64,000 nt of DNA from Antedon mediterranea (lineage: Eukaryota > Animalia > Echinodermata), in contig NC_092673.1 of assembly GCF_964355755.1 (NCBI RefSeq), forward strand, positions 18,473,648-18,537,647. The letters are read 5' to 3'. Both the position numbers and the translations under genes were made by a program. Numbering within the stretch: position 1 is the first letter of the stretch; each line of letters starts with the position of its first letter. The notes beneath the pieces are model-generated. The model saw only the letters and a list, made by a program, of their open reading frames with translations, was not told the origin of the DNA and did no database searches. Positions 1 through 40,700 of this stretch are shown piece after piece.

Positions 1-860
1 TTGTTACAACATGCTACTATTAGCTGTGATATCTTCATTACTCTTACCAGTAGTAGTACTATCAGAATCATTATTGATAATCTATACATTGTTACAACAT
101 GATGCTATTAGCTGTGTTATCTTCATTCCTCTACCAGTAGTAGTACTATCAGAATCATTATTGACAATCTATACATTGTTACAACATGCTACTATTAGCT
201 GTGATATCTTCATTACTCTTACCAGTAGTAGTACTATCAGAATCATTATTGACAATCTATACATTGTTACAACATGCTACTATTAGCTGTGATATCTTCA
301 TTCCTCTACCAGTAGTAGTACTATCAGAATCATTATTGATAATCTATACATTGTTACAACATGCTGCTATTAGCTGTGCTATCTTCATTCCTCTACCAGT
401 AGTAGTACTATCAGAATCATTATTGATAATCTATACATTGTTACAACATGCTGCTATTAGCTGTGATATCTTCATTACTCTTACCAATAGTAGTACTATC
501 AGAATCATTATTGATAATCTATACATGCTACTATTAGCTGTGATATCTTCATTCCTCTTACCAGTAGTAGTACTATCAGAATCATTATTGATAATCTATA
601 CATTGTTACAACATGCTGCTATTAGCTGTGATATCTTCATTCCTCTTACCAGTAGTAGTACTATCAGAATCATTATTGATAATCTATACATTGTTACAAC
701 ATGATGCTATTAGCTGTGATATCTTCATTCCTCTTAACAGTAGTAGTACTATCAGAATCATTATTGATAATCTATACACTGTTACAACATGCTGCTATTA
801 GCTGTGATATCTTCATTCCTCTTACCAGTAGTAGTACTATCAGAATCATTATTGATAATA
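1..860. repeat. Minisatellite, ~88-bp unit, ~10 copies (intronic in gene 1; runs off the window start)
   Basis: Unit TTGTTACAACATGCTACTATTAGCTGTGATATCTTCATT...GATAATCTATACA recurs at 1, 89, ~177 and onward; the ORFs 11-286, 186-704 and 613-801 are repeat artefacts. Confidence 0.95.
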
Positions 861-907: not shown

Positions 908-3900
908 ACGAAAGTGGGCCAAAAGAAAGGAAAGGAAGAAAAACGGATCAAGGTAATTGATTGAAATATGTTGGAAAATAAGAGAGAGAAAATAAAACAA
1001 ATTGAATATTTACAGCATCTCAAACTGGTTTTGGTCAGAATTGGGGGAAACAATAATGATATATATCTCTTGGTATCTTTATTTTATTTTATTCCAATCC
1101 AAAAAAGCTGAATTGGAGATTTTTTCCAAAGGCTAAATTTTTACAAATTATAAATTTCACATACTTTTTCAAATAAATATTATAAATTTTAAACAGTTTA
1201 AGAATTACACATAAAACAAGAAGAAAAAAAAACATTTAAAGTCATTATTATTTAAGAATTAAGCAGACAAGTGAGATATAGAAGAAGCGGTCATTTATTA
1301 TATCTGGATAATGAGACACCAAATTGTCCATATGCATTTTATCATATTTTAACTTTTAATCGCTTTTTAAAGATTTTGTGCAATAATGTATGTGTTCTAT
1401 ATTTTAATTTTTTGTTTATATTATATATTATATATATCGGTTTTTTATCGTACTAATATTTGCCAATCTTTAAGAAGAATTTCTATTGTTATGTTATTAT
1501 GATAATGGACAAATGAAGCTTTTCAATATTTCATTAATTTTTCATTTGCAGGAAATACAATGGCAGATTCTGAAACTTTGAACAGTTTCCAAGACCTAAA
1601 AGGTGGTCTCAGTGGGTACTTTGATGGTGAAAGATACCATTGGCTGAGGTTCCTACTATTTGATCAATTGGATGTCGGGGACCTTACAAATAAAGATTTC
1701 AATGGACATGACTTACTCAATACACTTGAAGACAAAGGTTTCATCTCACCAACCAATGTTAACTTGCTGTTAGAGATTACAAATACATCTGAAATCCAAC
1801 AGGCCAAAGATCTTGTATCAAAGTATATGAGAGACAACAACATTCAGGATAGACATACTGGTAAAGCTAAGTTGTCACCTTACAGAAAGCGACTGTTTAA
1901 GGCCCTGAAACAAGTTGACCGAGATGCATTACGTAATGTTACTGCTTACTATGACTTGACAAAATATAACTTCTCCAATGTATGGGATGCAGTTCTCTAT
2001 CTGGAGAATGATAAACAATTAGTAGATGATTTTGACAAAATACAGAGGTTTGCAGAACGTCTTGGTGGAATAGCAAGCAACACACTACTTGGTAATGGTA
2101 TTTAAAGACCCCTTCCCTGCAATTTTGGACGTTTTTTGGAAAATAATACATATATATCACTTTAAAAACATTAAACCATGTCATTCCTTGTCTTAAATGT
2201 ACGTTTTATGGTAAATTATGATAAAAAGTGAGAAACAATGCACTACCTAAGTAGCTCGCGGCGATCGAACTCTCGTGGACGGTCTCAGGCCTAGCCTAGC
2301 TAGGCTTAGTTTTGTAGGCCTAGCTGGTAAACATCGGTAACGTACGAACATCGTACGCTAGCTATATACCTAGCCTGACGTTGTATAGTTGCTGCATTAA
2401 TTGTCTTTCTATTTTTGCCAGACTCCGTTGATACAAATTGGGGAACACCCGGTATTTTCGCTGAAAAGTTAGGAGTCTTCCATTTGTTTTGGCTTCACGA
2501 TCGATCGAAAAGTGGGCGAATTACAGGTGAAAAACAAAAATATCAATCCGCGCGCAATGCATTTTGGGATTTATAGCGGGCCGCTATAATTATTAAAATC
2601 GATTTATTTTTCACATTTTTAACCGTTTAAAGACGAAAAAAGTTATCGCAATAGGACCATATAGTATTATTTTTACATTAAATATAGTTTGTGATCTTAA
2701 ATTAGATCTAAAAAACGTAGGGAATGGGGCTTTAATATTCTTACAAAACTATTCCAAAGTTAATTGTAATGTAACTATTCATATCTTTCATTTGTTTTAA
2801 AATTTTACATGATTTAATTTCAATCATTGTTTATATACTATACAAGTTGATAATGTATTGATTATTTTATTTATTAACTGATTATGTAATAGTGGGAAGA
2901 ATGAGACTGATGAATATGACAAGATAGTGATAATAAAGACATTGCAATACTAATATAGGATAATGTCATAAACACAAAAATATGAAGAATTTGGAATTTT
3001 GTAATTTGGAAAACTGATTATAGATATAGAAAATGTAACTCAAAATTGTGTTTGAAAATTGTAAATACTGGACTAACTAACAACAACAACCCCCCCCCCC
3101 CCCCACCTTTGGCTGGCTGACCCTCCCCTGGGGGTAATCTATAAGAAATTTAGAAAAATGAAGCTGCTAGGTCTCTGGAAATTGCACTTATACATTGATA
3201 TGATACAAAATTACCATGGTTGGGGGTGAGCTAAGATAAGAAAATTTTGAAAATTAGAGCTGTTAGGTCTCCGGAAACTCTATGGTTGGGTCTGAGCTAA
3301 GACAATTTTGAAAACTAGAGCTGCAGGTCTACAAAAATTACAATCATACATTGAAAATGGTGGAGGGAAAATTTGAAAATATGAAAAATTCATATTATTA
3401 AATTATCTGTTTTAAAAACAAATTCACTGAAATAAATGTAAATGTTTGTGTATAATAAATGATAAATAATTTATTGCCATCTGTCACAATTTAAATCCCC
3501 ATGTTATTAAAATAATACTAATGACAATGGCAGTAAAATAAGAAATAATTGATTATACTTACTTGGATAAAACATGCAAAATTGTATTATTTCACAAGAT
3601 TCCAAAAAAAACCCTACTTTTTTCACAGATGTGCAAGATGGTTCAGTGACCTCTGCATTACCACAGTCTGATATCCAAGGCAGTCAACAAGGTAGGATCC
3701 ACTGGTTAATTCCAGAGGTTAATCATCTAAGTGGTTACATTTTAAAATAAAACTTAATAGACATATTATAATATAACTGTAGCACATTTTGAGTTATTCA
3801 AACTGTATACATTTTAGATGAAAATGTATAGTTATGTTACTCTCCAAAATGAACATAAAATGTATAGTTATGTTACTCTCCAAAATGAACATAAAATGTA

Positions 3901-6239
3901 TAGTTATGTTACTCTCCAAAATGAACATAAAATGTATAGTTATGTTACTCTCCAAAATGAACTTAAAATGTATAGTTATGTTACTCTCCAAAATGAACAT
4001 AAAATGATGAACATAAAATGATGAACATAAACAGTCATTTATTTGTGTGTCACGCATACAAAATAAAAAGCTTTGTCATTAAAATGTGTAATGTATAACT
4101 GTCTTTTTTGTATTTTTGTTGAACAGAATTAACAAAGCTATTAGCATCAGATTCACCAGTTACTGTTAATGAGGAATTAAAAACACAAATGAAGAAAGTG
4201 ATGATTGAGGAACAGGAAAGAAAACTTGAAGCAGAGAGTGGTGAGTTAAGGATCATAAATTAATTTACTTTTTATTTCGTCACCACTCAACAGTGACACA
4301 AGTCAAGTCAATTGCAAAGTTCAACAATAGAAAATGATGAACATATTTAAACATAATTATATAAACAAAATCCAAAGCTCTGTCTTAAGCTGGCCTTTAA
4401 TATACTGTTCAACGTATACTAACAATAACTGTCTTTTCTGGATTTTTTTATTGAACAGAAGTGACAAAGCAGTTTCCATTGGATTCATCAGATACTCTTA
4501 GTGATGAATTTCAAACACAAGTAGAGGAAGAGGAAATTAAACCTGAACCAGAGAGTGGTGAGTCTCATAAAATATTAGTTCAGTTATTAATATGGTTAAA
4601 ATAACTTTAAATGTGATTTTATAGAATGGATTTCAGCTAAATTCTTTTTCATATCCTTTTTTTTATTTCAACATTTATTCAAAAAAAGAAAGTCTTTATA
4701 AACAGAAATATAAAGTGGTATTAGCTTTTAATTTTGTTCATACTTATTAGGCTAACATCATAATTTCATTCATTCATTTATTGCCAGGAAAAAACTACAA
4801 AATGACATTAACAATAGGAGGTTTAAAAAATAGAGAACATATAATGTAGTACTGTATATAAAAAACAAATACATTTTTATTTATATTGGTTGATCAGGTT
4901 ATAGTTTAAATTGTGTTTTAAATAACCAAATGTTTATTTTGTTCACAATATTTAATTCTTATTATTTCAGATCCAGAGCAACCACAAAATCAAGGGTAAA
5001 TGTTTATTGAGTTACACCAAAAATTTGACATTTATCATTATTTGTTTTAACAATAAATTTACAGCAATACTTAACTGCTTTGTACTTTTAACCAAATTAA
5101 TTATGTGTATAATTAATAATAAAACAGACAAAGTTCTTGTTTCTGCCTCAAAATAAAATATACCTGATGATGACCTATGGTCGAAAATACTAGTACAATA
5201 AATATTTTATTTTGATGCAGAAAACAAGAAATTTGTCTGTTTTATACATGATCTTGCCTATGCAGCACCTTTTTTTTCCCTAATTATGTGTATACTCTGG
5301 TATTAACTTCACTCAGTAACTTCATTTTTCATTCAGTACAAACACACTGCCAATTGGCTGCTGGTGTTGTATGTTTATACCAGAGAACTCCCTGTTTATA
5401 CCATAATCAATCAATAAATAAGTATTGCGCGTATGCATGTAAATTGGTAAACAAAGATACAATTGTAGCAATGTTAACTTACTGGAAATCTAATGATTTT
5501 TTTCACTGATTTAGAATAAACTAATGTTTTAAATGGTTATTTATGTTTATTCAATTTATTGATCGAAAATTAATAGCAAGAAGGAGTCTGAAAAAAGTAA
5601 CTTTAAGATTAATTATAACATTTTAATAATTGTTAGTTAGAATTTTAATAATAATTTGTGTACATTTTTAGTTCTAGACCGAGCCGAAAGAAATGTTTGT
5701 TGAAGTTTTTAAAAGGTATTTAACTATTCTATATTTCAGAGTCTCAAAAATTGTTTTTAAATTCAAGCATTGTTTTCAACCTTCTGTAGTTTCAATTTGT
5801 AAAAATTATTTTTGTATACCTTTTACCTATAAATATTTTTTTTTTGTCAATATAAAAAGTCAATAAAAACAAATATATTGATAGGTAGAAATTGTGTAAT
5901 TTTAAGAAAAATTCTTAATATAATTGTAAGAACCTTGAAACCTCTCAAGAATATATTTAAAACAAGATAAGGATTTATGACAAATTTTCTCTTTTAGATT
6001 ACCGGTGGATAGTTTTTGCATTTTGGTTAATTCTATTGGCAGCCTTTGTCATCTTAATTATTATACATGATGGCTTAGCAGCAAGAATTGGCATTGGTAT
6101 TGGATTGTTGGTAACTGTTGTTGGTGGCTGTATCTGGTGTGTACATAAGAAAGTCACCAAGTCTTGTACTCAGTCAACAAACGCAGCAGCAGACGGACAG
6201 AGAGCACGCTATTCAGAAATTTCCCAACAAGAGCAATAG
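908..6239 (+). CDS. Gene 1 (spliced, 5'-incomplete): tandem death-effector-domain protein with acidic linker and two C-terminal transmembrane helices
   Basis: Phase-compatible AG/GT exons 908-952, 1552-2091, 3629-3691, 4127-4240, 4459-4557, 4971-4995, 5672-5715 and 5998-6239 join into one open frame ending ...SEISQQEQ*. Confidence 0.8.
1552..2091 (+). CDS. Gene 1 exon encoding two tandem DED-like death-fold domains
   Basis: ttgcag|GA acceptor and G|gtaatg donor (phase 1-1, 540 nt); LRFLLFD...DLLNTLEDKGFISPTNVNLLLEI matches the DED pattern (L.FL...dLf..Le..g.i...nl.lL.el); a second unit begins SPYRKRLFKAL. Confidence 0.8.
2106..2731. mobile_element. Non-autonomous DNA transposon with TTAA TSD (Kolobok-like MITE)
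   Basis: TTAA|AGACCCCTTCCCT ... AGGGAATGGGGCT|TTAA imperfect TIRs; related partial copy at 57500-57829. Confidence 0.75.
3821..4030. repeat. Minisatellite, 36-bp unit, ~5 copies
   Basis: AAAATGTATAGTTATGTTACTCTCCAAAATGAACAT in tandem, intronic. Confidence 0.95.
5120..5243 (+). mobile_element. Penelope-like element remnant: inverted repeat enclosing a hammerhead ribozyme core
   Basis: CTGATGA-T-GACC-TAT-GGTC-GAAA at 5164-5186, flanked by ~42-bp inverted arms (5120-5161 and 5202-5243). Confidence 0.55.
5998..6239 (+). CDS. Gene 1 terminal exon: two hydrophobic transmembrane segments and a short tail
   Basis: cttttag|AT acceptor; DYRWIVFAFWLILLAAFVILIII-HDG-LAARIGIGIGLLVTVVGGCIWCV-HKK...*; in frame with ORF 6036-6239. 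Confidence 0.75.
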
Positions 6240-6694
6240 ATCACAAGGAAAGACACTGTAAACAGCCCTTGTATAAAGAATATCAAAGATAGATGTAAAA
6301 TGAAAAATATGTGAAACAAAATGGGAGTTTTTTTCACGATGATGAATGACTAGAGGTTTAGAGGGTGTTACTGTAAATTAAAGATGGCCATCCAAGGGTC
6401 AATATCACAATCCACACTCCATTCAAAATTATTTTCCGCTCAAGGAATTCAGCCTTGCTTGTCAAATCAAACTGCAACATTGATTTAAGGATTTGTTTTT
6501 GTAAAATACAATCAACTTTTTAAAATCAGAACTCTCATTAGAATTTTACAAATTTCAGTTTTTTTAACGTTCCGAATTCTATTATTGATTTTATGAAAAG
6601 ATTAAAATTAAAATTAGACTTTTTAGTTTAATAAAGTGGGTAATGCAATGCCAGTATTATGTATGTAAATAATATTAGTTTTATTAAGCTTAAC

Positions 6695-7312
6695 ATGCTG
6701 TAGTAGACAGTTGTAAACATATTGAAGCTGTAACTCAGTTGTCAATTGTGTACTCAATGCTGTAGTAGACAGTTGTCATCATATTGAAGCTGTAACTCAG
6801 TTGTCAATTGTGTACTCAATGCTGTAGTAGACAGTTGTCAACATATTGAAGCTGTAACTCAGTTGTCAATTGTGTACTCAATGCTGTAGTAGACAGTTGT
6901 CAAAATTGAAGCTGTAACTCAGTTGTCAATTGTCTACTCAATGCTGTAGTAGACAGTTGTCAACATATTGAAGCTGTAACTCAGTTGTCAATTGTCTACT
7001 CAATGCTGTAGTAGACAGTTGTCAACATATTGAAGCTGTAACTCAGTTGTCAATTGTCTACTCAATGCTGTAGTAGACAGTTGTCAACATATTGAAGCTG
7101 TAACTCAGTTGTCAATTGTCTACTCAATGCTGTAGTAGACAGTTGTCAACATATTGAAGCTGTAACTCAGTTGTCAATTGTGTACTCAATGCTGTAGTAG
7201 ACAGTTGTCAACATATTAAAGCTGTAACTCAGTTGTCAATTGTCTACTCAATGCTGTAGTAGACAGTTGTCAACATATTGAAGCTGTAACTCAGTTGTCA
7301 ATTGTCTACTCA
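6695..7312. repeat. Minisatellite, 62-bp unit (internally dimeric), ~10 copies
   Basis: ATGCTGTAGTAGACAGTTGTCAACATATTGAAGCTGTAACTCAGTTGTCAATTGTGTACTCA repeats at 6757, 6819 and onward. Confidence 0.95.
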
Positions 7313-8549: not shown

Positions 8550-9375
8550 CAACAACACAATTTGTTGATAAATCTAAAAGCTGTAGGAATCACTGTATTT
8601 ATAGTACAGGGATTTTAACAACACAATTTGTTGTGGATAAATCTAAAAGCTGTAGGAATCACTGTATTTATAGTACAGGGATTTTAACAACACAATTTGT
8701 TGTGGATAAATCTAAAAGCTGTTGGAATCCCTGTATTTATAGTACAGGGATTTTAACAACACAATTTGTTGTGGATAAATCTAAAAGCTGTTGGAACCCC
8801 TGTATTTATAGTACAGGGATTTTAACAACACAATTTGTTGTGGATAAATCTAAAAGCTGTAGGAATCCCTTTATTTATAGTACAGGGATTTTAACAACAC
8901 AATTTGTTGTGGATAAATCTATAAGCTGTAGAAATCACTGTATTTATAGTACCGGGATTTTAACAACACAATTTGTTGTGGATAAATCCAAAAGCTGTGG
9001 GAATCACTGTATTTATAGTACAGGGATTTTAACAACACAATTTGTTGTGGATAAATCTAAAAGCTGTAGGAATCACTGTATTTATAGTACAGGGATTTTA
9101 ACAACACAATTTGTTGTGGATAAATCCAAAAGCTTTAGGGATCACTGTATTTATAGTACAGGGATTTTAACAACACAATTTGTTGTGGATAAATCCAAAA
9201 GCTGTAGGAATCACTGTATTTATAGTACAGGGATTTTAACAACACAATTAGTTGTGGATAAATCCAAAAGCTGTAGGAATCACTGTATTTATAGTACAGG
9301 GATTTTAACAACACAATTTGTTGTGGATAAATCTATAAGCTGTAGGAATCCCTGTATTTATAGTACAGAAATTTT
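8550..9375. repeat. Minisatellite, 69-bp unit, ~12 copies
   Basis: TTTTAACAACACAATTTGTTGTGGATAAATCTAAAAGCTGTAGGAATCACTGTATTTATAGTACAGGGA in tandem; source of the repetitive ORF 8516-9595. Confidence 0.95.
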
Positions 9376-9406
9376 TACAAAAAATGACCAAATTGATAAT
9401 GATAAC

Positions 9407-12400
9407 TGTAAGACACAAAAAAGAATACACTGCGTCCTCACTCTATCATCAGTACTTTGGTATGTTTCTGTTACCCTGCCTAATCTCCATTTACCTCTAA
9501 CTGCATTACTATCTTGTATCAACACAACGTCACCAGTCTTCACATCACGTCTTATGGTATGCCATTTCTGTCTTATAATCAATGAAGGAAAATAATCCCG
9601 CGTCCACTTCTTCCAAAACCCATTTACCAAGCATTGTATGAACTTCAGTCGATCCTTAATGCTTACGTTATCACCTCCATGGTTCATCTGGTACCTTTCC
9701 AGTAGATCTGCCCAACAATAAATCATTTGGAGACAGATATGACCCATCCTGTGGATCTGTAGGATGCTTTCCAATCGGCCTCTCATTTGTTAAATTCGCT
9801 ACTTCAAACATAACAGTCTGAAGTTCACTGAAGGCAAGCACCTGTCCACCGATTGCATGACTAAGCGCTTTCTTAATCCCTCTAATCAGACTCTCAGTCA
9901 CTCCATTCTGCCAGGGAGCATCAGGTGTAGAAAACTTCCACGTTGTGCCATGGTTTACCCCAAAACTCTTCAACTGTTTGGCTGCTGCACTCAGCTGTGT
10001 CCCAGCATCGCTGTATATTTCTTTGGGGTATCCTCGAAGTGAAACGAACTTTCTGAACACTTGCAGGAACGCGTCTGTACTATAGTCAGTGGCTATGTCG
10101 ATGTAGACTGCTCTCGTCACAAAACAATCAAAAACTACACCGTATGCCTTTCCTCGAGCTCGCTTGTTAACTTCACCTCTTGTTGTGAATGGCCCAAATA
10201 AATCAACCCCTATATACATCCATGGTGGTGATGGTTTCAGTCGAGTAATTGGTAACGGTCCCATTTTCTGAGCTGCAGTGTTTTTCTCAAACCGCCTACA
10301 AGTTACACAATGGTACTTAATGCTTTTGACCATTCTCTGTACGTCAATTATCCAGTATTTCGATCGAATCTTGGCAACGGTTGACTGCACTCCCAAATGC
10401 CCTTTACTATGGATTTCTTTAGCGTATAGTTTCGTAAAAGCGTTATCGTATGGCAACAAAGGTACTTCTTGCTTATTGTAGCTGAAATGTACGTTTCGAC
10501 TTATTCTTTCTCCCACAACAATTACTCCATCTTCACGAATCTTAGGCCCCAAGCGAGCGTATGTCTTGTCAAATTTAGTTTTATCTTTGGATAATAGATT
10601 TATCATTATTTTCTGCGATTCCTTTATCCAGAAATGTTCCGCACCTTTAGTATCCTTGACCTCGATCTCTTCTAATATACTCTTTAGTCTCCTTTTCTCA
10701 TACACTTTGAGAACTCTGGCAGTCACCCTTAACAACTTCTGATACTTGCTCTGCCGTCTAATTATTCTATCAGCTAATGAGTCTTCTTCTTCGATGTTCA
10801 CTGCCATGACTATCTTCACTCGTTCTGGAAGGGTCTTTATATTACAACTTTGTTCAATTGGCCAATTCTCAACTGGCTGTCGCAAAAACTCTGGTCCCCT
10901 TTGCCACTCACTATTTGGCCCAATCTGGGATGGATTCATTCCTCGTGTGATTGCGTCCGCTATATTAACCTCTCCTCTACACCACCACCAATCTTGAGGT
11001 TCCGTGTCTTGTTGTATCTCCCCGATTCTTGTGGCGGCAAATGTTTTGAACCCATAGCTTTGTTTTTGTACCATGGCTCGTACAATCTCGCTGTCTACAA
11101 TATAAAAAACTTGGTCAAACTTAATTCTCGTCTCATTTATGATATATTGTGCCAATCTCTTACTCATCACCGCTGCACTAAGCTCCAATCGCACCACGCT
11201 AATAATCTCTATTGGAGCAACCCTGCTTTTACTGGCAACGATTTGAGATGAAAATTGTCCGTCCCACTGTTCGTAACGGACGTATGCCACTGCGCCTAAC
11301 GCCTTCTCGGACGCATCAGAAAACATAATCAAACTTGGTAATATGCCCGGCTTTGCATCCAACGGTTTAACGCATCTCCTAAATTCGACGCTTGATGTTG
11401 TACTTAAATCTTCAAATAAATCTATCCACTCCGCTCTCTCACTCATGTTTATAGCTTCATCCCACTCTAATTTAGCTCCCCACAGCTTTCGAAGTAGAAT
11501 CTTTGCCCTCACGGTGATTGGAGTTATCAACCCCAAAGGATCATACACAGAATTGATTTTGCTTAGGCATATACGTTTGGTTAACACTTCTGGTATCTCC
11601 TTGAAGGTACGAACGTTGTCAGTGAACGCAAGAACGTCATCACCTGGTTTCCAACTGATTCCTAACACCTTCTCTTCCTTTGGATTCCATGTTTCTTCAA
11701 GCTTTTCTCTTCCCGAGAATATCCAATGCTTTATGGCGAAATTTCCTGGCTGTATTAATTTCTCTATTTCTTCCGCTCGTTGCCTTGCTTTCTTTGCGGA
11801 TTCTTCACACTCCAGAATGTCATCCACATAAACAAAACATTGTTTAAAACTGTCTCTGCGGCTTCAGGTGTTGACAGTTTCCCTGCTTCTGCCGTTTTCC
11901 TCAAAGCCACTGTTGCTATGGTGGCAGATGGACGGTCTCCAAAATTTACAGCAGTCACGCAATAGGTTTTTGGTAGGGTATTCTGGTTCAAATCTCTCCA
12001 GAGAAACCGATGACAGTGCTGGTCCAGCTGGGTGATAGCAACACTATGATACATCTTTCTTATGTCACCTACCAGTGCATGAGGTCTTTCTCTGAATCTC
12101 AGTAGAACAGCTAACAAGTCATTAACAAGGTCGGGTCCTTTGGCCCAATAGTCGTTAAGAACATTTCCCTTGTAGGCCGCACTGCTATTAAAGACGATTC
12201 GCACTGGGGTGCTGGAACTATCAGGCTTTTTTACTGCATGGTGAGAAATATAATGTATTGGTCCTTTGTATTCTTGCAATTCCGTTTCCTTTATTTCTCT
12301 CGCCACCCCTCGTTTCAACATATCTGCTATTTGCTCTTCGTATATCTTTTTCTTTGCTGAGTCTTTCATTAATCTTTTCTCTAGCGCTGCTAACTTCGCC

Positions 12401-15145
12401 ACCGCCACTTTTTTGTTATCTGGTAGATTGTTTGGGTCTTTGATCCAAGGGTACCTTGCGGTCCATTTACCTGCTTCATACAGTAAGTTGTCTTCTATCA
12501 ACTTTAATTCACGTTCTTCTTTCAAAGTGTACTTCTGCGCTCCACTGGGGCATTTGCCACATCGACACGAACCACATTTAGGCTGACAGTTAACCCCCAT
12601 ACTTTCTATCGTCAGAAAGTCGTCAAAGGACGTTGTCTTAACATAGTTCACTAGTATTCCTGCCCCTTCTTCCCATTCGATAGAAGGATGAGACCCTCCA
12701 ATACACTGACCAAACTGGTTTTTCAGTAGAACTAGATGACCACATGCCTTGATCTTCGTCGGATGGTAACCAGCATACTCGTATCCAATTAACAAGTCGA
12801 CCTCTCCAGTTGGTCTCTTGACCTGCTCAGGATATACATTAAGTATTTTGGCGAGGTTTTCTAAGTTCTGATTACCAATTTTTGCCGTTATCTTCGGAAT
12901 CCCATAGGCTTCTACTGCAACACAGTTTCCCATATTATCATTCAGTAATATTTTATATTTCATGCTGTCGATGCATTCGGTTTGCCCGCCTACTTTGTTC
13001 ATGCTTATTTTCACTGGCCTTCCCTTTGCCTTTATGCGTTTGGCCGCATCATGTGTGATTAACGACGCCGTCGCACAACTATCCCAAAGAGTGTTGAGCT
13101 CGTTCTTGCCGCTCCTCACTTTCATCAATTGTAACAAACAAGGGTCAGATTTCATCTGTAAGCTATTTTCAAGGGACGACACTGTCGAAATTGGTTCTGT
13201 GTTCTGAGTCTGCTGATGTAACAGCTTGTGATGAAGTCTCCTGCAACCATCCGTATCGCATTGCTTCTTCCCTTTACACTTAGCAATGATGTGGCCGGCT
13301 GTTAGGCAGCAGAAACATGCTCGGTTTTCTTTCAAGATGTTCAGCCTCTCATCCACAGATTTGTTCAAGAAGGTTCGACAATTCTTGGGTTCGTGTTGAC
13401 TTTCTTTGTGTAGAAGGCACTTTGGTCTGCTAGATATTTCTACCATGTGCATCGATGCGGCTGCTTTGGTGGGTTGGTTTGTCCGTATTTCCCCCATTGC
13501 GTATTCTACACTTCTTCTTTCTCTTGTCAGAAATTTCAGTAGTTCTGGGAATCTATCAGTTTTATCTACACCGTTGGCTTCTTCATGCATATGTCGGACC
13601 CATCTTCCAAACACTGATGGTGGTAGTTTCTTTTCTATCTCTCCCACCACCTTGGAATTAGATATTTCTCTTTCTAGTCCTGCTCTTTTCAGGTCGTGAT
13701 AACTTGCTTCCACTTTGTCGATATATGTCACTAGTTTGTTATCTTCGCCATCTTTAATTTCTCGCTTCTGTTCTAATTCACTTACAATTGTATCTACCAA
13801 TTTCACTTTGTCGCCATATCTCTCGTCAAGCCTTTCCCACATTAAATCAATATTATCTTCAACTGGTCCCAGAATTTTTAGCGGTGCTTGCCCTAGAGTT
13901 TGCCTCAAGGCAAACGACAATTGTTTAGGATGTGTCACAGGAATCACGAAAGTCTTGAAGTCCTCCTTAAATCTAGCGTATCTTCTAACGTTACCTTCAA
14001 ATCTAGGCAAATCCATCTTTTTTAGTTGCAGTGTTGATCGCTTTTCCTTTGGATCTCGTTCATCTTCCTGAACTTTCACTGGTGGGTTTACGTTAGCTTT
14101 ATATTTGATAACACCACGACGGACGTCGTTGAATCTGTTCTGTACCTCTTCTATCCATGCTGCTTGTTCAGCATCTTCTGGATCTTCTATTTTCATTTGA
14201 ATCTCTACATGTAAGTCTTGGATTTTCTTCCAGATCTCAGTCATATCTACAATCAGAATCTCTAGATATTCTACCGGACTGGATTCTTCCATTGCTTGCT
14301 GTATTGTCTTTATGACTCTGGTCATAGCACCTTTCTGCACACTACGTCTTCTTTTTATCTCATCCATTTCAATGGATTGTAGTAAAGATACGAATTTCGA
14401 ATGTAAGACACAAAAAAAAGAATACACTGCGTCCTCACTGTTGTTATACGACTCAATCTCAAACTTTAATGCAACGTAAAATATGGTACACACGAAACAT
14501 TAATTTGTATGGTATTTGGTTCGAAATCTGTAAGATATAATAATAATTACTCGCAAATTAAGCAATTGCTATAGCGCCATCTATAATGGAAATCACTCAA
14601 GCGTGACGACCGATCTACGCTACAATCAGTACGATCGGACAAAATGAGTACGCTATAAATAACCAAACTATAGGAATACCGTCAGCGGTGGTTCTAAACA
14701 ATGTAACTAACCACATAACATGTGAAATATAAACAATATGATTATCAAATTCTATGTCAATAAATCCAGGTGATCTGTAAATATATCTATGTTAACATGT
14801 TATTTCTGTATACTAGCTATCATTATACAAGTTTGCGTACGTAACATTTACACAAGATGGATGCCAAAGGCGAAAACTACATGCATCCTCATCAACACTT
14901 GTGCATAAACTAATTATTAAATATTATAACGTTGATTCTGATTATGATCTAACAATGATTAACTATACTAATACTCACTCTTGAGCTCTCAATTAACAAC
15001 CGAAAATTAAACTGTAGTTAACAATAATATGCCGTGTCTCAGAAAATCACACACGTGCGTCTATTACTGCTTCTCGTTACCAACATTAACATAAAAAATC
15101 ACAACATAAATATAGAGGGCGTACTTCAATATCCTAAACGATACA
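9407..15145 (-). mobile_element. BEL/Pao LTR retrotransposon (copy 1) with a full 5' LTR and a 35-bp 3' LTR stub
   Basis: TG...CA ends with 5-bp TSD ATAAC (9402-9406, 15146-15150); 5' LTR 14402-15145; TGTAAGACACAAAAAAGAATACACTGCGTCCTCACT shared at 9407 and 14402. Confidence 0.92.
9442..14367 (-). pseudogene. BEL/Pao gag-pol polyprotein (Gag with zinc knuckles, protease, RT, RNase H, integrase), frameshifted
   Basis: LPRFEG, CFCCLTAGH..C, LWDSCA protease motif, GDIRKMY, YVDD split by a frameshift near 11835, FSDASE RNase H, HLGV/CVTC and GVDLFGP/SDAGT integrase; second frameshift near 9675. Confidence 0.93.
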
Positions 15146-16799: not shown

Positions 16800-18935
16800 A
16801 TTATTTATTTATTTATTTCGTTTTCTTTTAGTAGGGTAGCCCTCTCAGTAATAAAATAAAACTGCTCTTCCGTGGGGCCCTACGGCACATTTAAACAAAA
16901 TTTGAAAACAACTTAAACTAAACTTAAACTAAAACTTAAACTAAAACTTCAATGCATGTTCTCATTATTATTATACTTTTATACCATATTTAAATATATT
17001 TCACTGGAACCATCCTAGACCACCGGCAACAATAAATGAATCTTAACAAGTGATTTAAAACGGTTATAATTGTTTTGTTTTCTTAATTCATAAGGTAGGC
17101 CATTCCAGAGTGAACTTCCATAATAAACAAAACTACGTTTGTATATTTCGAGGTTACATCTGGGCAAATACAACAAATTATTTTCATAGTTTCTGGTTTG
17201 AATATTGTGTACACTACTAATATATTGCAAAACATCACATAAGTATGAAGGTACAGATTCTTGTAAACATCTAAATATTGTACAAATTGTATGATATTCA
17301 ATTCTTGTCTTAATTGTTAGCCAACCTAAATCATAATGCATTTGTCTAACAGGAGTTCGAATATCAGCACCTAGTATTAATCGTGCAGCTCTATTTTGTA
17401 CCCTTTGCAATTTTAAAATATGGGCGTTTGAACCAGTACCCCAGACTGTTGAACAATAGTCAATATGTGATAAAAATAGAGCATTGTATAATCTTTTAAT
17501 AATTTTAGGAGATGTAAAACTTTTCAATCTATAAAATAGATGTATAATTTTTGATAGTTTTGCACATATAGAATCAATATGTACTTTCCATGAGAGTTGT
17601 TCATCAAATGTAAGTCCCAAATATTTAAACGTTTCAACTTTCTCAATCGGAATGTTATCAAAAATTACTGTTTCATCTGTTGTTTTATTAACACGTGCAT
17701 GAGTACCAAAAAGAATGTATTTGGTTTTATCAATGTTTAGAGTTAATTTATGTTTATCTAACCATTGTTTTACATTTTCCAACTGTTCAGTTAAAACTGT
17801 TGTAAGCTCTTCATTTGATTTACATGCATAAAAAAGCGCAGTGTCGTCTGCATAGAGGACTGTTTTACAAATCCCATCAACACTATCATGTAAGTCATTT
17901 ATGTATAAAATAAACAACAAAGGGCCAAGAATTGAGCCTTGTGGTACCCCATAGTTGACATTTAAAATTTCAGATTTTTTTCCATTAAAATTAACAAATT
18001 GTTTGCGATTTTTTAAATAATTACTGAACCATGCAAGCTCAGTGTTTATCATTCCAAAGGTGCATAATTTACGTAATAAAATATCGTGGTCTACCGTATC
18101 AAACGCCTTTTTTAGGTCAAGAAAAATTGCTCCAGTTACCAAGCCATTATCAATATTTTTATATATATAATTGCATACATCTATCAGTGTAGTAGAAGTT
18201 GAATGTAACGACCTAAAACCAGATTGATTTTTACATAATAAATTAAACTCATTTATATGATTCATAACTTGATTATGGATGCATCTTTCAAAAACTTTCA
18301 TAACAATAGATATAACAGATATTGGACGGTAGTTGTTAAGTTCATGTTTACATCCTCCTTTATAAAGCGGAGTAACCTTAGCACATTTCCATTCACTTGG
18401 AATAACACCAGATCTTAATGACCAGTTAAACAAAAAGGCAAGACTTTGAGAAATTTGTGAAGATGCAATTTTAAGTAACCTAGCGGAAATCCCATCAATT
18501 CCAGTAGCTTTTCCAATTTCTAACTTTTCCAACAAAGCTTCAATTTCATTTCCATTAATATCTTTAAAGTTGAAACGTTGTTGAAATTGTGATAACGATT
18601 CAACGGTAATATCGTTTTGGTTGTCATTAAAATGGGATGCAAGTTCATTAGAAATTGAACAAAAATATTTATTAAAATGATTAGCAATATCAGTTGGCTT
18701 GTTTATTTCATTACCGTTTACATTGAGAGTTGTTTTAGTTTGTTTCTTTTTATTGGGTAAAAAGTCTTTCATGGTTTTCCATAATGTTTTAGTGTCATTA
18801 ACATTATCCTTTAATTTATTATTTATATAGTCGCGTTTTAGTGATTTAGACAAATTATTTAATTTATTTCTTGCCTTTTTGTAAGAATTCCAATCATCTA
18901 TGTTCTTAGTTTTTTCGGCTTTTTGTTTTAAATAT
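16800..18935 (-). mobile_element. 5'-truncated LINE (CR1/L2/Crack group)
   Basis: RT ORF plus 3' UTR ending in an (AAATA)n-like tail at ~16800-16820; no endonuclease region present. Confidence 0.9.
17015..18853 (-). CDS. Non-LTR retrotransposon reverse transcriptase (ORF2 C-terminal part, open)
   Basis: NYRPISVIS, QSGFR, FLDLKKAFDTVDH, GVPQGSILGPLLF, YADDT, FKYLG. Confidence 0.92.
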   Translation of the reverse strand: MSKSLKRDYINNKLKDNVNDTKTLWKTMKDFLPNKKKQTKTTLNVNGNEINKPTDIANHFNKYFCSISNELASHFNDNQNDITVESLSQFQQRFNFKDINGNEIEALLEKLEIGKATGIDGISARLLKIASSQISQSLAFLFNWSLRSGVIPSEWKCAKVTPLYKGGCKHELNNYRPISVISIVMKVFERCIHNQVMNHINEFNLLCKNQSGFRSLHSTSTTLIDVCNYIYKNIDNGLVTGAIFLDLKKAFDTVDHDILLRKLCTFGMINTELAWFSNYLKNRKQFVNFNGKKSEILNVNYGVPQGSILGPLLFILYINDLHDSVDGICKTVLYADDTALFYACKSNEELTTVLTEQLENVKQWLDKHKLTLNIDKTKYILFGTHARVNKTTDETVIFDNIPIEKVETFKYLGLTFDEQLSWKVHIDSICAKLSKIIHLFYRLKSFTSPKIIKRLYNALFLSHIDYCSTVWGTGSNAHILKLQRVQNRAARLILGADIRTPVRQMHYDLGWLTIKTRIEYHTICTIFRCLQESVPSYLCDVLQYISSVHNIQTRNYENNLLYLPRCNLEIYKRSFVYYGSSLWNGLPYELRKQNNYNRFKSLVKIHLLLPVV

Positions 18936-36199: not shown

Positions 36200-37615
36200 A
36201 ATGTTGCACCACTTGCGCGGCGGATAACCAAACTCGTCAAAGTGACGAGTTACATGTCTAGTTCTTTATTTCTCTCTGTACAGATTTTGTGTAACAATTA
36301 TCTCAAAAAGTTGAATGTTGAAGATGACAAAATTTTCACAATATCTTTCAAATACTGTAACTTAGTCCTAATAAGCTTTTCAGCGTGATCACTCATCCGT
36401 GACGTCATTTATACGCCATTTTGTGAAATCACATTATCAATCATATCGCCATAACTCTTTATCACATATCAATAAAATTCACTATACGTAAACTTCAGGT
36501 AAAAGGTAAATATATTAACCAATAAAAGGCACGCGCACGTAGGGTCATACGCGTGAAATCGCGCGTTAAAAATTAAAAAAGCTCAAAATTAAGTTTTGAT
36601 CAATTTAGAGCATGAATTAGGCTATTTGCGTGTTTCAAAAAATTACTGCGCAAAAATGCGTTTTTGCGCGCGCAATTCTTAAAAAAGGTAAAAATACGTA
36701 TTTTTTTGTAAAAATCGCATTCTACTCACCATTCTTAGTACATTCACCAAATTTGAGTCCGTTCCGACTTAAAATAACGCTATACGAGCATGTTAAAAAT
36801 GACAAAATGCGCACATCAATTTCACAAAAGTTCTGAAAATTGTGAAAAATATGTCTTTTTAAAATGAAAATAACTCTTCAGAATGCACGATGACCCCTAA
36901 GTTTTTTAACTTATTCGGGAAGCCATTGAGTTTTAGATATAAATGTATATACACATTAGACGTAAAAAATGGTATTACGTCATGAAATGGCCACTTGAAT
37001 ATAAAAATTAAGATTTTTTTCCGTTTTGTGTAGGTTATCACATTCAATAGAGCGCATCTCCGCTATTTGAGCTCGATTTTCGCACAAATTTCAGTGTGTG
37101 CTTGCTTAATTATTTATCTTTATCATAAGTTGTCAGTGTTTTCATTTTGATGACGTCATCACACGTAAAAACTTGAATAACGTAGGTCGTGTAATTTCAC
37201 CTTCGCCGTAAGTTTGAATATCTTACAGCTCTTCAGAATTGAAGGTTACCTTGATGATTATAATTTATTCTGAAAGCTGATGAAATTTATTTGCTCAATT
37301 CATTATCTTTCGAAATTGTCATCTTCGAGTATATTTTGATAATTCCATCATACCAAAAAATTAGAACATGTGTGTCCCGTAATTTCACCTATGCTACACT
37401 GTATATAGATATACAGTATATACTGTACATATTGTATATGGCATATAATAGGCACAACTCAGCACTATAAGCGTATGCATCATGTCATAGGATGGCGTAC
37501 ATCAACTTTTTACGATCATATGTTAACGTACGTGCATGTTTAAAAGTGTTAATTTCATTAAAATGATAAAAATGATCACCTATAATTCGTCAAAGTGACG
37601 AATTAAATTCTAGTT
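36200..37615 (+). mobile_element. Helentron/HINE-like non-autonomous element (left boundary approximate)
   Basis: Hairpin TCGTCAAAGTGACGA followed by TCTAGTT occurs at both ~36233-36262 and ~37587-37615. Confidence 0.5.
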
Positions 37616-37779
37616 GTTTTTATCATTGTTTAGAAACCTCTCAATCCTCGACCATACTCAAATTAAAGAAAGAAAGAGAAAATAATAAAGATACTTTGAC
37701 AGATTTATTACTGAGCATCGTGATTGTTGTTATCTGCCTGACTTATCCAGTACACCTGTTAACATTTCGAAACTTGACA

Positions 37780-40700
37780 ATGTCAAGCACACAGAGTTCG
37801 ACTAGAAGTAGCCAATTAGAGATATCAGCAGCAGAAGCAAGAGCTGAATTGGCGGTTGCTAAGGCGAGAGCTCAATATAATAAGAAAACCTTACAGAAAA
37901 GATTAGAACTTGAACAAATAGAAGAAGAGGGTAAATTAGCCGTAGCACAAGCCCGCTCAGATGCCTTGGACAAAGAGCTAGAACGATTGTCCATTACGGC
38001 TGAGGATACACCTCAGGTACCAAATACTGATGCGGTCGATAAGGTTAGTCAATACCTCGACTCATTAGACGAAAACGAAGCGGTACAGCCTGTCTTAGAA
38101 CCAGTACCACCTACACTATCACCTAATGCAACACCATGGTTTCCAAGGGCAAACCCAACTACAGATCAGACCACAGTTACACCTAAACCTGAAATAAGCT
38201 CTGCACCTTACCCGATTACACCTACTCCAGCCGTTGAACAGACCAATAATATACTACTACAAAATTTGATTGAAAAACAGGGAGAAGTACTGTCCCAATG
38301 GTTGATACAAACAAGTCTACCTAAAATGGGACTTACAAAATTCGACGGCAACCCAATGGATTATGGACGATTTAAGAGAGCCTTTGAGCACGAGGTGGAA
38401 GGCAAGGTTCGCAGCGAGAGAGACAAACTGTACTACTTAGAACAATATACAACTGGTGAGGTGAATAATCTGGTCAAGAGCTATTTAGCTATGGATCCTG
38501 GAGAAGGCTTTAGACAAGCGAAGCAGGCGCTAATAGATAAATACGGTAATCCATTCAGATTGGCGGATGCCTATATTACATCATTAAAGGACTTTCCTGA
38601 GATAAAGGCAGAGGATAAAGATTCTTTGTCCAGATACTCATTACTACTTATCGAATGTAAGAACTCCATGTCCAGTCTCGATCATTTACAAGAATTAAAT
38701 CATACAAGTAGCATACAGACACTCACGTTGAAACTGCCTTACCGCATGAGAGACAAATGGAGGACCAAAACAGACCAAGAAACCAGAAGGGTACAATTTG
38801 ACGACTTTGTACTATTCGTAGAAAAACAGTCCAGGATTCTTAGTAATCCTACGTTTGGGAACATTAAAGACGAAAAGGTATCTCAGCGCAAACCACCACA
38901 TAGACCAAAGGGAGCTTATGCTGCAGTCGAAGTACAAAGAGACTGTCTTTACTGCAGTAAAGGCGCACACAGAATAGAAGAATGCAGGAAATTCGACAAC
39001 CTGCAAAGACCAGAGAAACTAACCTACATTAAAGAACACAGATTATGCTACGGCTGCTTAACTACTGGTCACTTGGCTAAACATTGCAACAGTCGCCACA
39101 CGTGCACCAAATGTAAGAGGAGGCACCCAACCACGCTCCACCAAGACCCAGTTGTCAACACTGAAACGACAAACAAGAATAACGATAAGCAGCCTAACCA
39201 ACTGCAAGCTGCGTGTGCCAAGATAAATCAAGGAGAATGTGCCTTGGCAGTGATCCCAGTTCGCGTAAGCGTTGGATGCTCACACCAAGTAGAAACATAC
39301 GCCTTTCTAGATCCAGGGAGCACCATTTCGTTTTGCTCAGAGGCACTCGTAAAACAACTTGGCGTTGGTTGAAGGAATGAATGTATCACCATTGACACGA
39401 TGGGGTCTACGTACCGATTAACAACAAAGGCGGTAAAGGGACTAAAGGTAACTTCCCTAGACAACAGAAATATGGAAACTGTTATACACACTGCATATAC
39501 TAAGAGCAACTTACCTATTCAGAAGGCACACTTTCCTAAACAATCGGACATCGACAAGTGGCCACATTTACAAGGCGTACAAATACCCCAGATAGATAAG
39601 GGTAAAGAAGTGGGTCTACTGATAGGCATGGGTGTAGCAAGTGCTTATACACCTCTGGAAGTAAAAACAGGACCTATTGACGCTCCCCATGCAACCAGAA
39701 CTAACCTGGGGTGGATCGTTTGGAACTTGATTGGTAACCACAAAAGTAGTCACCCATACCCAGCAAACTTCGTTGGAAGAAATGTAGAAAAGTCTACTTA
39801 CAACACGTTGGAGAAGTTAGTAAAAAGGAGCACCGAGATTGACTTCCCAGAAAGTGGTTTGGATCTTACACAAAACCATTCTGTTGAAGATAAATTATTC
39901 CTCAGGAAAGTAAACGAAAGCATAGTGAAGGGACCCGACAATCACTTTACAATTAGCCTTCCCTTTAGACGCAATGAAGTGGTCATGCCTGACAACAGAC
40001 TACAAGCAGTCAAACGACTAGAGTCATTATGTCGTCGTCTGAAGGCAGATAAACCATATGCAATGGAATACACCAACTACATGGATGAATTGTTAACCAA
40101 GGGGGATATGCAGAGAGAGTACCACCTGACGAAATTATACAAGATGGACACAAATGGTATATCCCTCACCATGGCGTTTACAATCCCCAGAAACCTGGGA
40201 AATTAAGAGTGGTTTTCGACTGTGGAGCAAGATATCAGGGAGTAGCTCTTAATGATGTTTTTTTACCCGGACCAAACCTGACTAGCAACCTATTGGGGGT
40301 ACTCCGTTTCAGGGAAGAAGAAGTTGCCATAATTGCTGATGTGGAAAAGATGTTCCACCAAGTCAAAGTACCGGAAAGTGATAGAAACTTCCTCAGATTT
40401 CTATGGTTCCCAAATGGAAACATTTATGCTACTCCCATAGAATATAGAATGATCGTGCACCTATTCGGATCAACCTCGTCACCCTCATGTGCAAATAAGG
40501 CACTACAACAGACAGCAGCCGACTGTTCTATTTCAGAAATCCAAGAAAACACCAAGAAAACATTGTTACGTAACTTCTACGTAGATGATCTGTTAAAGAG
40601 TGTTGAGAATCCGGAGACAGGAGTGGAACTTATTAAGCAGCTGAGAATACTATGCCAAGATGGAGGATTTCGTTTGACAAAATGGACCAGCAATTCAAAG

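What the first reader, a model, noticed from the sequence alone, without database searches (positions are those of the whole stretch)
908..6239. Membrane-anchored tandem-DED protein: candidate death-fold signalling adaptor
Seen: eight phase-compatible exons give DED-DED, then an acidic/coiled linker, a basic patch (RPSRKK), two hydrophobic helices and a short tail. Known: tandem DEDs are typical of soluble caspase-8/10 and FLIP and nucleate DED filaments, while membrane-tethered death-fold adaptors such as MAVS use a CARD and a single tail anchor. Inference: a TM hairpin would keep both termini cytosolic and create an organelle-anchored platform or decoy for DED caspases. I do not recognise this as a named architecture.
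Basis: partly seen in the sequence, partly recalled or inferred. Interest (0 to 1): 0.8.

Follow-up and report, generated by a model that had tools for sequence, protein, structure and literature searches.

The report
Feather-star membrane-anchored Roco death-effector gene
These eight exons of a feather star encode a predicted caspase-8-like double death-effector domain joined to a likely membrane anchor, and they are likely the tail end of a larger GTPase (Roco) immune-type gene that starts before the window, one of many exon-shuffled relatives rather than a stand-alone adaptor.

Summary
The eight exons are real: all seven introns are GT-AG and the frame is open (372 aa from Met1560). The big exon folds as a caspase-8-type tandem DED (pLDDT 93; Z 15.1). 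But the first exon (908-952) has no ATG and is the family's COR-to-DED linker. An Antedon mediterranea RefSeq model (P0004, 966 aa) matches all eight exons at 85-100% and carries Roc-COR in front. The hydrophobic last exon was found in only three other proteins, all with COR upstream; one (P0092) has no DED. The locus is therefore most likely the 3' third of a chimeric Roc-COR–tDED–linker–membrane-hairpin gene cut by the window start, in an expanded crinoid cluster. A stand-alone form from Met1560 is not excluded: crinoids do have Roc-less membrane tDED models (P0002, P0071). No RNA contig was seen joining this DED to this anchor. Likely role: a membrane-tethered, dimer-controlled DED platform or decoy for a crinoid tDED caspase; binding is untested and the DED2 FL motif is replaced. 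Roco plus death-fold and Roco plus C-terminal anchor are each in print; their union with a true tandem DED was not found in my searches. New variant, moderate interest.

The parts
1..859 (.). 88-bp minisatellite, 9.9 copies, in the intron upstream of the first visible exon; no Roc/COR coding DNA in the window before 908
   Evidence: TRF; tblastn of P0004 and P0013 gives no hit before 898
908..952 (+). Internal 45-nt exon, phase 1/1, no ATG; the COR-to-tDED linker exon of the family
   Evidence: 12 of 14 residues identical to P0004, P0007, P0008, P0093, where it follows COR; spliced to 1552 in 2 contigs of run X1, shorter side 52 letters
1552..2091 (+). Tandem-DED exon (540 nt, phase 1/1); in-frame ATG at 1560 in a good initiation context
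   Evidence: AlphaFold pLDDT 92.7; caspase-8 tDED Z 15.1, 156 aligned, rmsd 2.7; Pfam DED E 2.4e-4, below gathering score
1569..1835 (+). DED1 (residues about 4-92); FL motif kept at F31-L32 (1650-1655)
   Evidence: helices H4-H92; FADD DED Z 12.5, 87 aligned, rmsd 1.6; motif table
1878..2090 (+). DED2 (residues about 107-177); the caspase-8 F122-L123 position reads Ala-Tyr (1944-1949)
   Evidence: helices H107-H176; register from the phmmer alignment with caspase-8 (E 0.17, weak)
3629..3691 (+). Linker exon, phase 1/1
   Evidence: 20 of 20 residues identical to P0004 and P0002
4127..4240 (+). Acidic, predicted helical linker exon, phase 1/1
   Evidence: 36 of 37 identical to P0004 and P0002
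4459..4557 (+). Acidic linker exon, a duplicate of the previous exon
   Evidence: 113 of 144 nt identical to the previous exon with flanks; 32 of 32 residues identical to P0004, 28 to P0002
4971..4995 (+). 25-nt exon, phase 1/2
   Evidence: 7 of 7 whole codons match P0004
5672..5715 (+). Basic juxtamembrane exon, phase 2/1
   Evidence: 14 of 14 identical to P0004; 6 K/R, no D/E; aligned counterpart in P0092
5998..6239 (+). Last exon: hydrophobic segment 1 (6009-6065), 7-residue loop, hydrophobic segment 2 (6087-6143), 31-residue tail, stop
   Evidence: 63 of 79 residues identical to P0092, 39 of the first 41 to P0004, 37% to P0008
6630..6635 (+). Candidate polyadenylation signal
   Evidence: only AATAAA in 6240-7000; not tested

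Best explanation
The eight exons encode a predicted tandem death-effector domain, an acidic tether and a likely membrane hairpin, and they are likely the last third of a Roco-family gene (Roc-COR–tDED–linker–anchor) whose product would hold its DEDs on the cytosolic face of a membrane and would likely recruit or sequester a crinoid tDED caspase when the Roc-COR part dimerises. Shown: exon structure, fold, exon-by-exon match to a Roc-COR-bearing model, the anchor exon's link to COR in three models. Inferred: that this copy has Roc-COR upstream (about 0.65); that it arose by inserting a phase-1 tDED-plus-linker block between COR and the anchor of a P0092-type gene (about 0.6); two-pass topology with both ends cytosolic (about 0.6); nucleotide- or COR-dimer-controlled DED clustering acting on a tDED caspase such as P0074 in innate immunity or cell death (about 0.35, activating or decoy not resolved).
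For: P0004 (XP_071948758.1) maps on all 8 exons in order, residues 598-952, with Roc (30.2 bits) and COR-A (49.8 bits) above Pfam cut-offs in front. Exon 908-952 has no ATG and follows COR in 4 of the 5 models that match it best (P0004, P0007, P0008, P0093; P0003 starts just before it). The last exon was matched by 3 proteins only, P0004, P0008, P0092, and 3 of 3 have COR upstream; P0092 has no DED. The window tDED nests among Roc-COR-tDED units, sister to P0004's (SH-aLRT 88; quick tree). The Met at 1560 is missing in 6 of 10 COR-tDED paralogues, so the exon works as an internal one. One X1 contig spliced 952 to 1552 has 89 letters before 1550 of which at most 52 lie on the window, so at least 37 come from further upstream. 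Basic residues flank the hydrophobic pair on both sides. A caspase with the same kind of tDED exists in the genus (P0074) and shares the Ala-Tyr at the DED2 motif. Roc-COR dimerises through COR (PMC4104024, passages).
Against: The upstream exons lie outside the window and no genome was held. P0004 is a computed model and could fuse neighbours; it also ends differently after residue 41 of the last exon. The window tDED is a mosaic: of 18 variable sites 9 side with P0002, a model that starts at this Met and has no Roc, 7 with P0004, 2 with neither, so the spliced X1 contig may come from a P0002-type gene and its upstream letters may be untranslated. X1's variants over the last exon are largely P0092's residues, so that cover belongs to the DED-less paralogue. 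0 of 3 anchor-bearing models contain the P-loop (8 of 16 relatives examined have one) and the cluster's G4 reads THKG rather than having the usual Asp (the usual Asp is recalled, and seen in P0030). The DED2 FL motif needed for caspase-8 chains (PMC3477315, passages) is not kept. The low-confidence model of P0004 (pLDDT 48.8) draws the anchor as one long helix, not a hairpin, and P0092's second segment falls under the hydropathy threshold.
Confidence: 0.55

Rival explanations
1. Stand-alone membrane tDED adaptor or decoy: translation starts at Met1560 and the upstream exons are untranslated, or carry only ankyrin repeats without the GTPase; this could also be a short isoform beside the long one.
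For: Met1560 has A at -3 and G at +4. P0002 (168 of 177 identical in the tDED, same first three linker exons, single tail anchor) is modelled from this Met. P0071 of Anneissia is tDED-linker-two hydrophobic segments-tail in 315 aa with no Roc.
Against: Exons 4459-6239 match the Roc-COR model P0004 better than P0002, and the last three only P0004; exon 908-952 is conserved as coding linker (12 of 14 residues) and the anchor exon is otherwise seen only behind COR.
Confidence: 0.27
2. GTPase-dead scaffold: COR is present but the P-loop exon is lost, so the protein is a constitutive membrane-bound dimer that sequesters soluble Roc-COR-tDED paralogues or caspases (dominant-negative decoy).
For: 0 of 3 anchor-bearing models have G1; G4 is non-canonical; DED2 lacks FL, which in caspase-8 blocks chain growth.
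Against: 3 of 7 non-anchored COR models of the same cluster examined also lack G1 (P0007, P0009, P0090), so 5'-incomplete models are common; small-plus-aromatic at the DED2 motif is family-wide and includes the caspase, so it does not mark a decoy.
Confidence: 0.1
3. Recent non-functional chimera or relic of unequal crossing-over in a birth-and-death cluster.
For: Mosaic tDED, many partial models in the cluster, different C-terminus in P0004, no RNA contig seen joining DED to anchor (27 joints not shown).
Against: No stop or frameshift in any of 8 exons, all splice sites canonical; none of 38 listed variants tested creates a stop; a second sequence (P0004) has the same exon chain.
Confidence: 0.08

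Closest known systems
Brown-algal LRR-ROCO proteins with one or two C-terminal TM segments (Ectocarpus; PMC3341825, passages)
   Same: Clustered, fast-turnover Roco family; C-terminal anchor recruited behind COR, bulk predicted cytoplasmic; exon shuffling; proposed immune role.
   Different: No death-fold domain described there; here a tandem DED sits between COR and the anchor, in an animal.
Invertebrate Roc-COR-death-fold proteins (Trichoplax CARD/DD Rocos, PMC11378527 and PMC4104024 passages; Aplysia TIR/Death Rocos, PMC9334734 passages; mollusc Roc-COR-Death clusters; DAPK1)
   Same: Roc-COR followed by a death-superfamily adaptor domain.
   Different: The adaptor here is a caspase-8-type tandem DED and a membrane anchor follows; no kinase.
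Caspase-8/10 prodomain, cFLIP-S, viral FLIP
   Same: Same two-DED fold over about 156-162 residues (Z 13-15); DED1 FL kept.
   Different: 18-19% identity; DED2 FL replaced; no caspase domain; linker and membrane segments follow.
BAP31 (PMC2139787 search listing; PMC3742741 abstract) and BAR/BFAR (recalled, no call)
   Same: Membrane proteins reported to engage procaspase-8 through a DED-like region.
   Different: BAP31's vDED is a coiled coil with no DED fold; here the DED fold is supported by the model.
Oyster single-pass DED-TRADD-N expansions and amphioxus shuffled DED proteins (PMC8195603 and PMC2575513 passages)
   Same: Lineage-specific expansion in which DED is fused to varied sensors and to a membrane segment.
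   Different: Those have one DED behind an ectodomain and a TRADD-N domain; no Roc-COR, no hairpin.
MAVS (recalled, no call)
   Same: Death-fold domain on a long tether to a C-terminal anchor.
   Different: CARD and one helix there; tDED, two hydrophobic segments and probably an upstream GTPase here.

Membership tests
Tandem-DED proteins (caspase-8/FLIP type) | Two death-fold helical bundles packed as in caspase-8 tDED | tested here: met
   pLDDT 92.7, 11 helices; Foldseek E 1.8e-4, TM 0.69; Z 15.1, 156 aligned, rmsd 2.7, above the helical-bundle caution of about 13 and with the top 5 rows all tDEDs
Tandem-DED proteins (caspase-8/FLIP type) | Pfam DED above gathering score | tested here: not met
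   21.7 bits against 35.9, DED1 only, E 2.4e-4
Tandem-DED proteins (caspase-8/FLIP type) | DED1 FL motif | tested here: met
   F31-L32
Tandem-DED proteins (caspase-8/FLIP type) | Exposed DED2 FL motif for chain growth | tested here: not met
   Ala-Tyr at that register; register rests on a weak sequence alignment; 0 of 37 aligned relatives show FL in those columns
Tandem-DED proteins (caspase-8/FLIP type) | RxDL charge triad in DED1 (motif recalled) | tested here: not met
   A-K-D-L; Arg absent
Caspase-8/10, cFLIP-L | C-terminal caspase domain | tested here: not met
   none in P0004 or the window exons
Roco proteins | Roc and COR in the same chain as these exons | tested here: inconclusive
   Outside the window; met in the closest model P0004
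Roco proteins | Intact G1 P-loop | tested here: inconclusive
   Absent from models P0004, P0008, P0092; present in 5 cluster paralogues; models may be 5'-incomplete
Roco proteins | G3 and G4 motifs | tested here: inconclusive
   G3 present in P0004; G4 reads THKG in 9 of 16 relatives examined
Roco proteins | GTP binding and COR-mediated dimerisation | not testable with these tools
   needs biochemistry
MAVS-like adaptors | CARD plus a single tail anchor (recalled) | tested here: not met
   best CARD match Z 6.8 against 15.1 for tDED; two hydrophobic segments
Two-pass membrane hairpin proteins | Two membrane-spanning helices, both ends on one side | tested here: inconclusive
   hydropathy and flanking charge fit; low-confidence model shows one helix; second segment weak in P0092

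The most novel reading that the evidence does not exclude
Feather stars have built a death-receptor-independent, organelle-bound DISC: a Roco GTPase switch, likely fed by variable ankyrin sensor exons, carries a true caspase-8-type tandem DED on a membrane hairpin and nucleates caspase filaments in a GTP-dependent way, while anchor-only, DED-only and soluble paralogues made by phase-1 exon shuffling tune it; membrane anchoring of the same tDED cassette arose several times in crinoids.
Probability: 0.2. Interest if true: 0.75.

Novelty: new variant of a known kind. Interest (0 to 1): 0.45.

Why it matters
It links two open topics: what the expanded invertebrate Roco GTPases signal to, and how DED caspases are activated in animals with heavily shuffled death-domain networks. 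A Roco chain that ends in a real tandem DED and a membrane anchor gives a direct, testable output (DED clustering and caspase activation under nucleotide control), with natural controls in the same cluster: Roc-COR-anchor without DED (P0092), Roc-COR-tDED without anchor (P0006, P0013), tDED-anchor without Roc (P0002). It also parallels the anchored ROCOs of brown algae. The interest is limited because each pairwise combination has a precedent, the protein is already in RefSeq as an uncharacterised model, and no function is shown.

Tried and rejected
Own genome: none held, so the DNA upstream of base 1 could not be read. Sequencing runs: no RNA holder listed on record; X1 is only guessed to be RNA. 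In X1 the joints 3691-4127 (sides 21 and 25 letters) and 4240-4459 (side 30) are under the 31-letter bar, so they are not counted as bridges; joints 2091-3629, 4557-4971, 4995-5672 and 5715-5998 were not among the 15 rows shown, 27 were hidden. Contig depths were not used as copy number or expression. Complex prediction of the tDED with the caspase P0074 tDED was not available, so no verdict. A profile of alignment A1 found 0 solved-structure sequences at E 0.001; phmmer with the single exon reached only E 0.17. The full-length model of P0004 was too poor to use and was not searched. Hydropathy hits rejected: P0017 (inside Roc) and P0079 (no tDED unit; looks like a chance hit); those in P0057 and P0067 are repetitive and may be model artefacts. 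Pfam hits on the last exon (NEDD4_Bsd2 and two DUFs) are under their cut-offs and treated as hydrophobicity. The careful tree did not finish; the quick tree was used, 5 isoform units were dropped and P0058 was left unlabelled by a slip. Literature on BAR/BFAR gave one irrelevant paper. Earlier-finding look-ups by sequence and by nearby place were empty. Supplements were not read; domain-architecture tables in those of PMC8195603 or PMC11378527 could list a Roc-COR-DED-TM protein.
Full report
Observation. The window is AT-rich animal DNA; the nearest proteins are from the feather star Antedon mediterranea, so it comes from that species or a close relative. From Met1560 the chain is open for 372 residues. 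Because most exons are phase-symmetric, 40 of 120 combinations tried were open, so the frame alone proves little. The real support is RefSeq model P0004, which matches all eight exons in order at 85-100% identity; exons 3629-5715 differ from it at 1 of 110 whole codons.

The DEDs are real. Sequence evidence is weak (Pfam DED 21.7 bits against a cut-off of 35.9; caspase-8 E 0.17), but a model built on 37 relatives has pLDDT 92.7 and matches the caspase-8 tandem DED over its length (Foldseek E 1.8e-4; Z 15.1, 156 aligned, rmsd 2.7). The DED1 FL motif is kept; the DED2 position reads Ala-Tyr, and no FL is seen there in the 37 aligned rows, the crinoid caspase P0074 included. In caspase-8 that motif is needed for chain growth (PMC3477315, passages), so any filament here would use a changed surface.

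The gene is cut by the window. Exon 908-952 has no ATG, starts with a split codon and its frame is closed upstream; bases 1-859 are an 88-bp minisatellite. In P0004, P0007, P0008 and P0093 the same small exon links COR to the tDED. P0004 carries Roc and COR-A above Pfam cut-offs in its first 600 residues. The Met at 1560 is lost in 6 of 10 COR-tDED paralogues. In run X1 (guessed RNA) two contigs splice 952 to 1552, and one has at least 37 further letters from outside the window. That shows an upstream exon in this gene or a near-identical paralogue, not what it encodes.

The anchor is a Roco module. A search with the last exon returned 2 proteins among 394 candidates, P0092 and P0004; tblastn added P0008 at 37%. 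All three have COR upstream. P0092 is Roc-COR, a short linker, the basic patch and the same anchor and tail (63 of 79 identical), with no DED. The simplest history is that a phase-1 block of linker exon, tDED and acidic exons came to lie between COR and the anchor. The window tDED nests among Roc-COR-tDED units in a quick tree of 112 units and is a patchwork of P0002-like and P0004-like sites (9, 7 and 2 own of 18), as expected under gene conversion. Of the 15 hits lie on contigs of the same length, 36.19 Mb, that is, one chromosome.

The wider family. A scan of 1.84 billion representatives gave 76 hits; the 12 of them whose names were looked up, and the 4 already named, are all crinoid. The same tDED cassette is fused to NACHT-LRR, Roc/COR, ZU5-UPA, kinase, TRIM-NHL, PARP14-like, URGCP-GTPase, TIR and caspase domains (71 proteins scanned; P0084 left out for size). 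Of 91 proteins screened by hydropathy, 14 were flagged and 12 kept. On the tree the membrane label (13 units) needs 10 changes, at least 7 forced by well-supported branches, with 8 of 500 shuffles as low, so anchors were gained or lost repeatedly.

Results against my reading. The upstream DNA could not be read. P0004 is a prediction and ends differently after residue 41 of the last exon. X1's variants over the last exon match P0092 at seven residues, so they show the DED-less paralogue, not this copy. None of the three anchored models has a P-loop and G4 is unusual. The long model gave no hairpin.

Mechanism. Roc-COR units dimerise through COR under nucleotide control (PMC4104024, passages). 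I infer that the anchor confines the protein to a membrane with Roc-COR and tDED in the cytosol, that the acidic tether of about 100 residues spaces the DEDs from the bilayer, and that dimerisation clusters tDEDs so that a crinoid tDED caspase such as P0074 is recruited, either activated or held. Earlier unchecked notes place ankyrin-cassette Roc-COR-DED genes 0.77-1.9 Mb before this window; such exons would supply the sensor, but nothing here shows them in this gene.

Known systems and novelty. Anchored Rocos are described in Ectocarpus (PMC3341825, passages); Rocos with CARD, Death or TIR in Trichoplax and Aplysia (PMC11378527, PMC4104024, PMC9334734, passages), and Roc-COR-Death clusters are common in molluscs (atlas score 0.93). 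Single-pass DED proteins occur in oysters (PMC8195603, passages). BAP31's DED-like region is a coiled coil (PMC3742741, abstract). Searches showed no paper, by listing or passages read, describing a Roco with tandem DED and anchor or crinoid membrane tDEDs; the library lacks most subscription journals and I read no supplements. Verdict: observation confirmed, interpretation partly supported, new variant of a known kind, interest 0.45.

Noticed in passing
window 56813-64000 (+): A second family member: ZU5/UPA-like exons (56889-58834) and a tDED exon from 63744 running off the window, like P0005, P0012, P0022, P0042; its tDED is 223 of 256 nt identical to exon 1552-2091, rising to 30 of 30 at the 3' side, which suggests a conversion tract.
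   Followed up: partly
window about 2102-2735: Very high-copy short repeat element in the intron behind the DED exon; contigs of X2-X4 skip 2100-2731, so some copies or alleles lack it.
   Followed up: no
window 9358-14499 (-) and 37576-43119 (+): Two BEL/Pao LTR retrotransposons with stops or frame breaks (DUF1759, Peptidase_A17, integrase zinc finger).
   Followed up: partly
window 17015-18934 (-) and 59655-60665 (+): Two LINE reverse-transcriptase ORFs, the second inside the ZU5/UPA-tDED gene.
   Followed up: partly
window 48391-52487 (-): Four ORFs of 161-429 aa; the three scanned have no Pfam hit at 1e-5; they look like a DNA transposon (impression, untested).
   Followed up: partly
P0004, P0006, P0009, P0013, P0016, P0089, P0090, P0092, P0093: Roc G4 motif reads THKG throughout this cluster, without the Asp that usually selects guanine (role recalled).
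   Followed up: partly
P0039, P0041, P0058, P0061: Crinoid models with kinase and/or tDED, a hydrophobic segment and a C-terminal MAM domain: possible type II receptors with cytosolic kinase-tDED.
   Followed up: no
P0033: Antedon model with an N-terminal tDED and five hydrophobic segments.
   Followed up: no
window 6184-6213: An X1 contig of the P0092 type lacks 30 nt in frame in the cytosolic tail.
   Followed up: no
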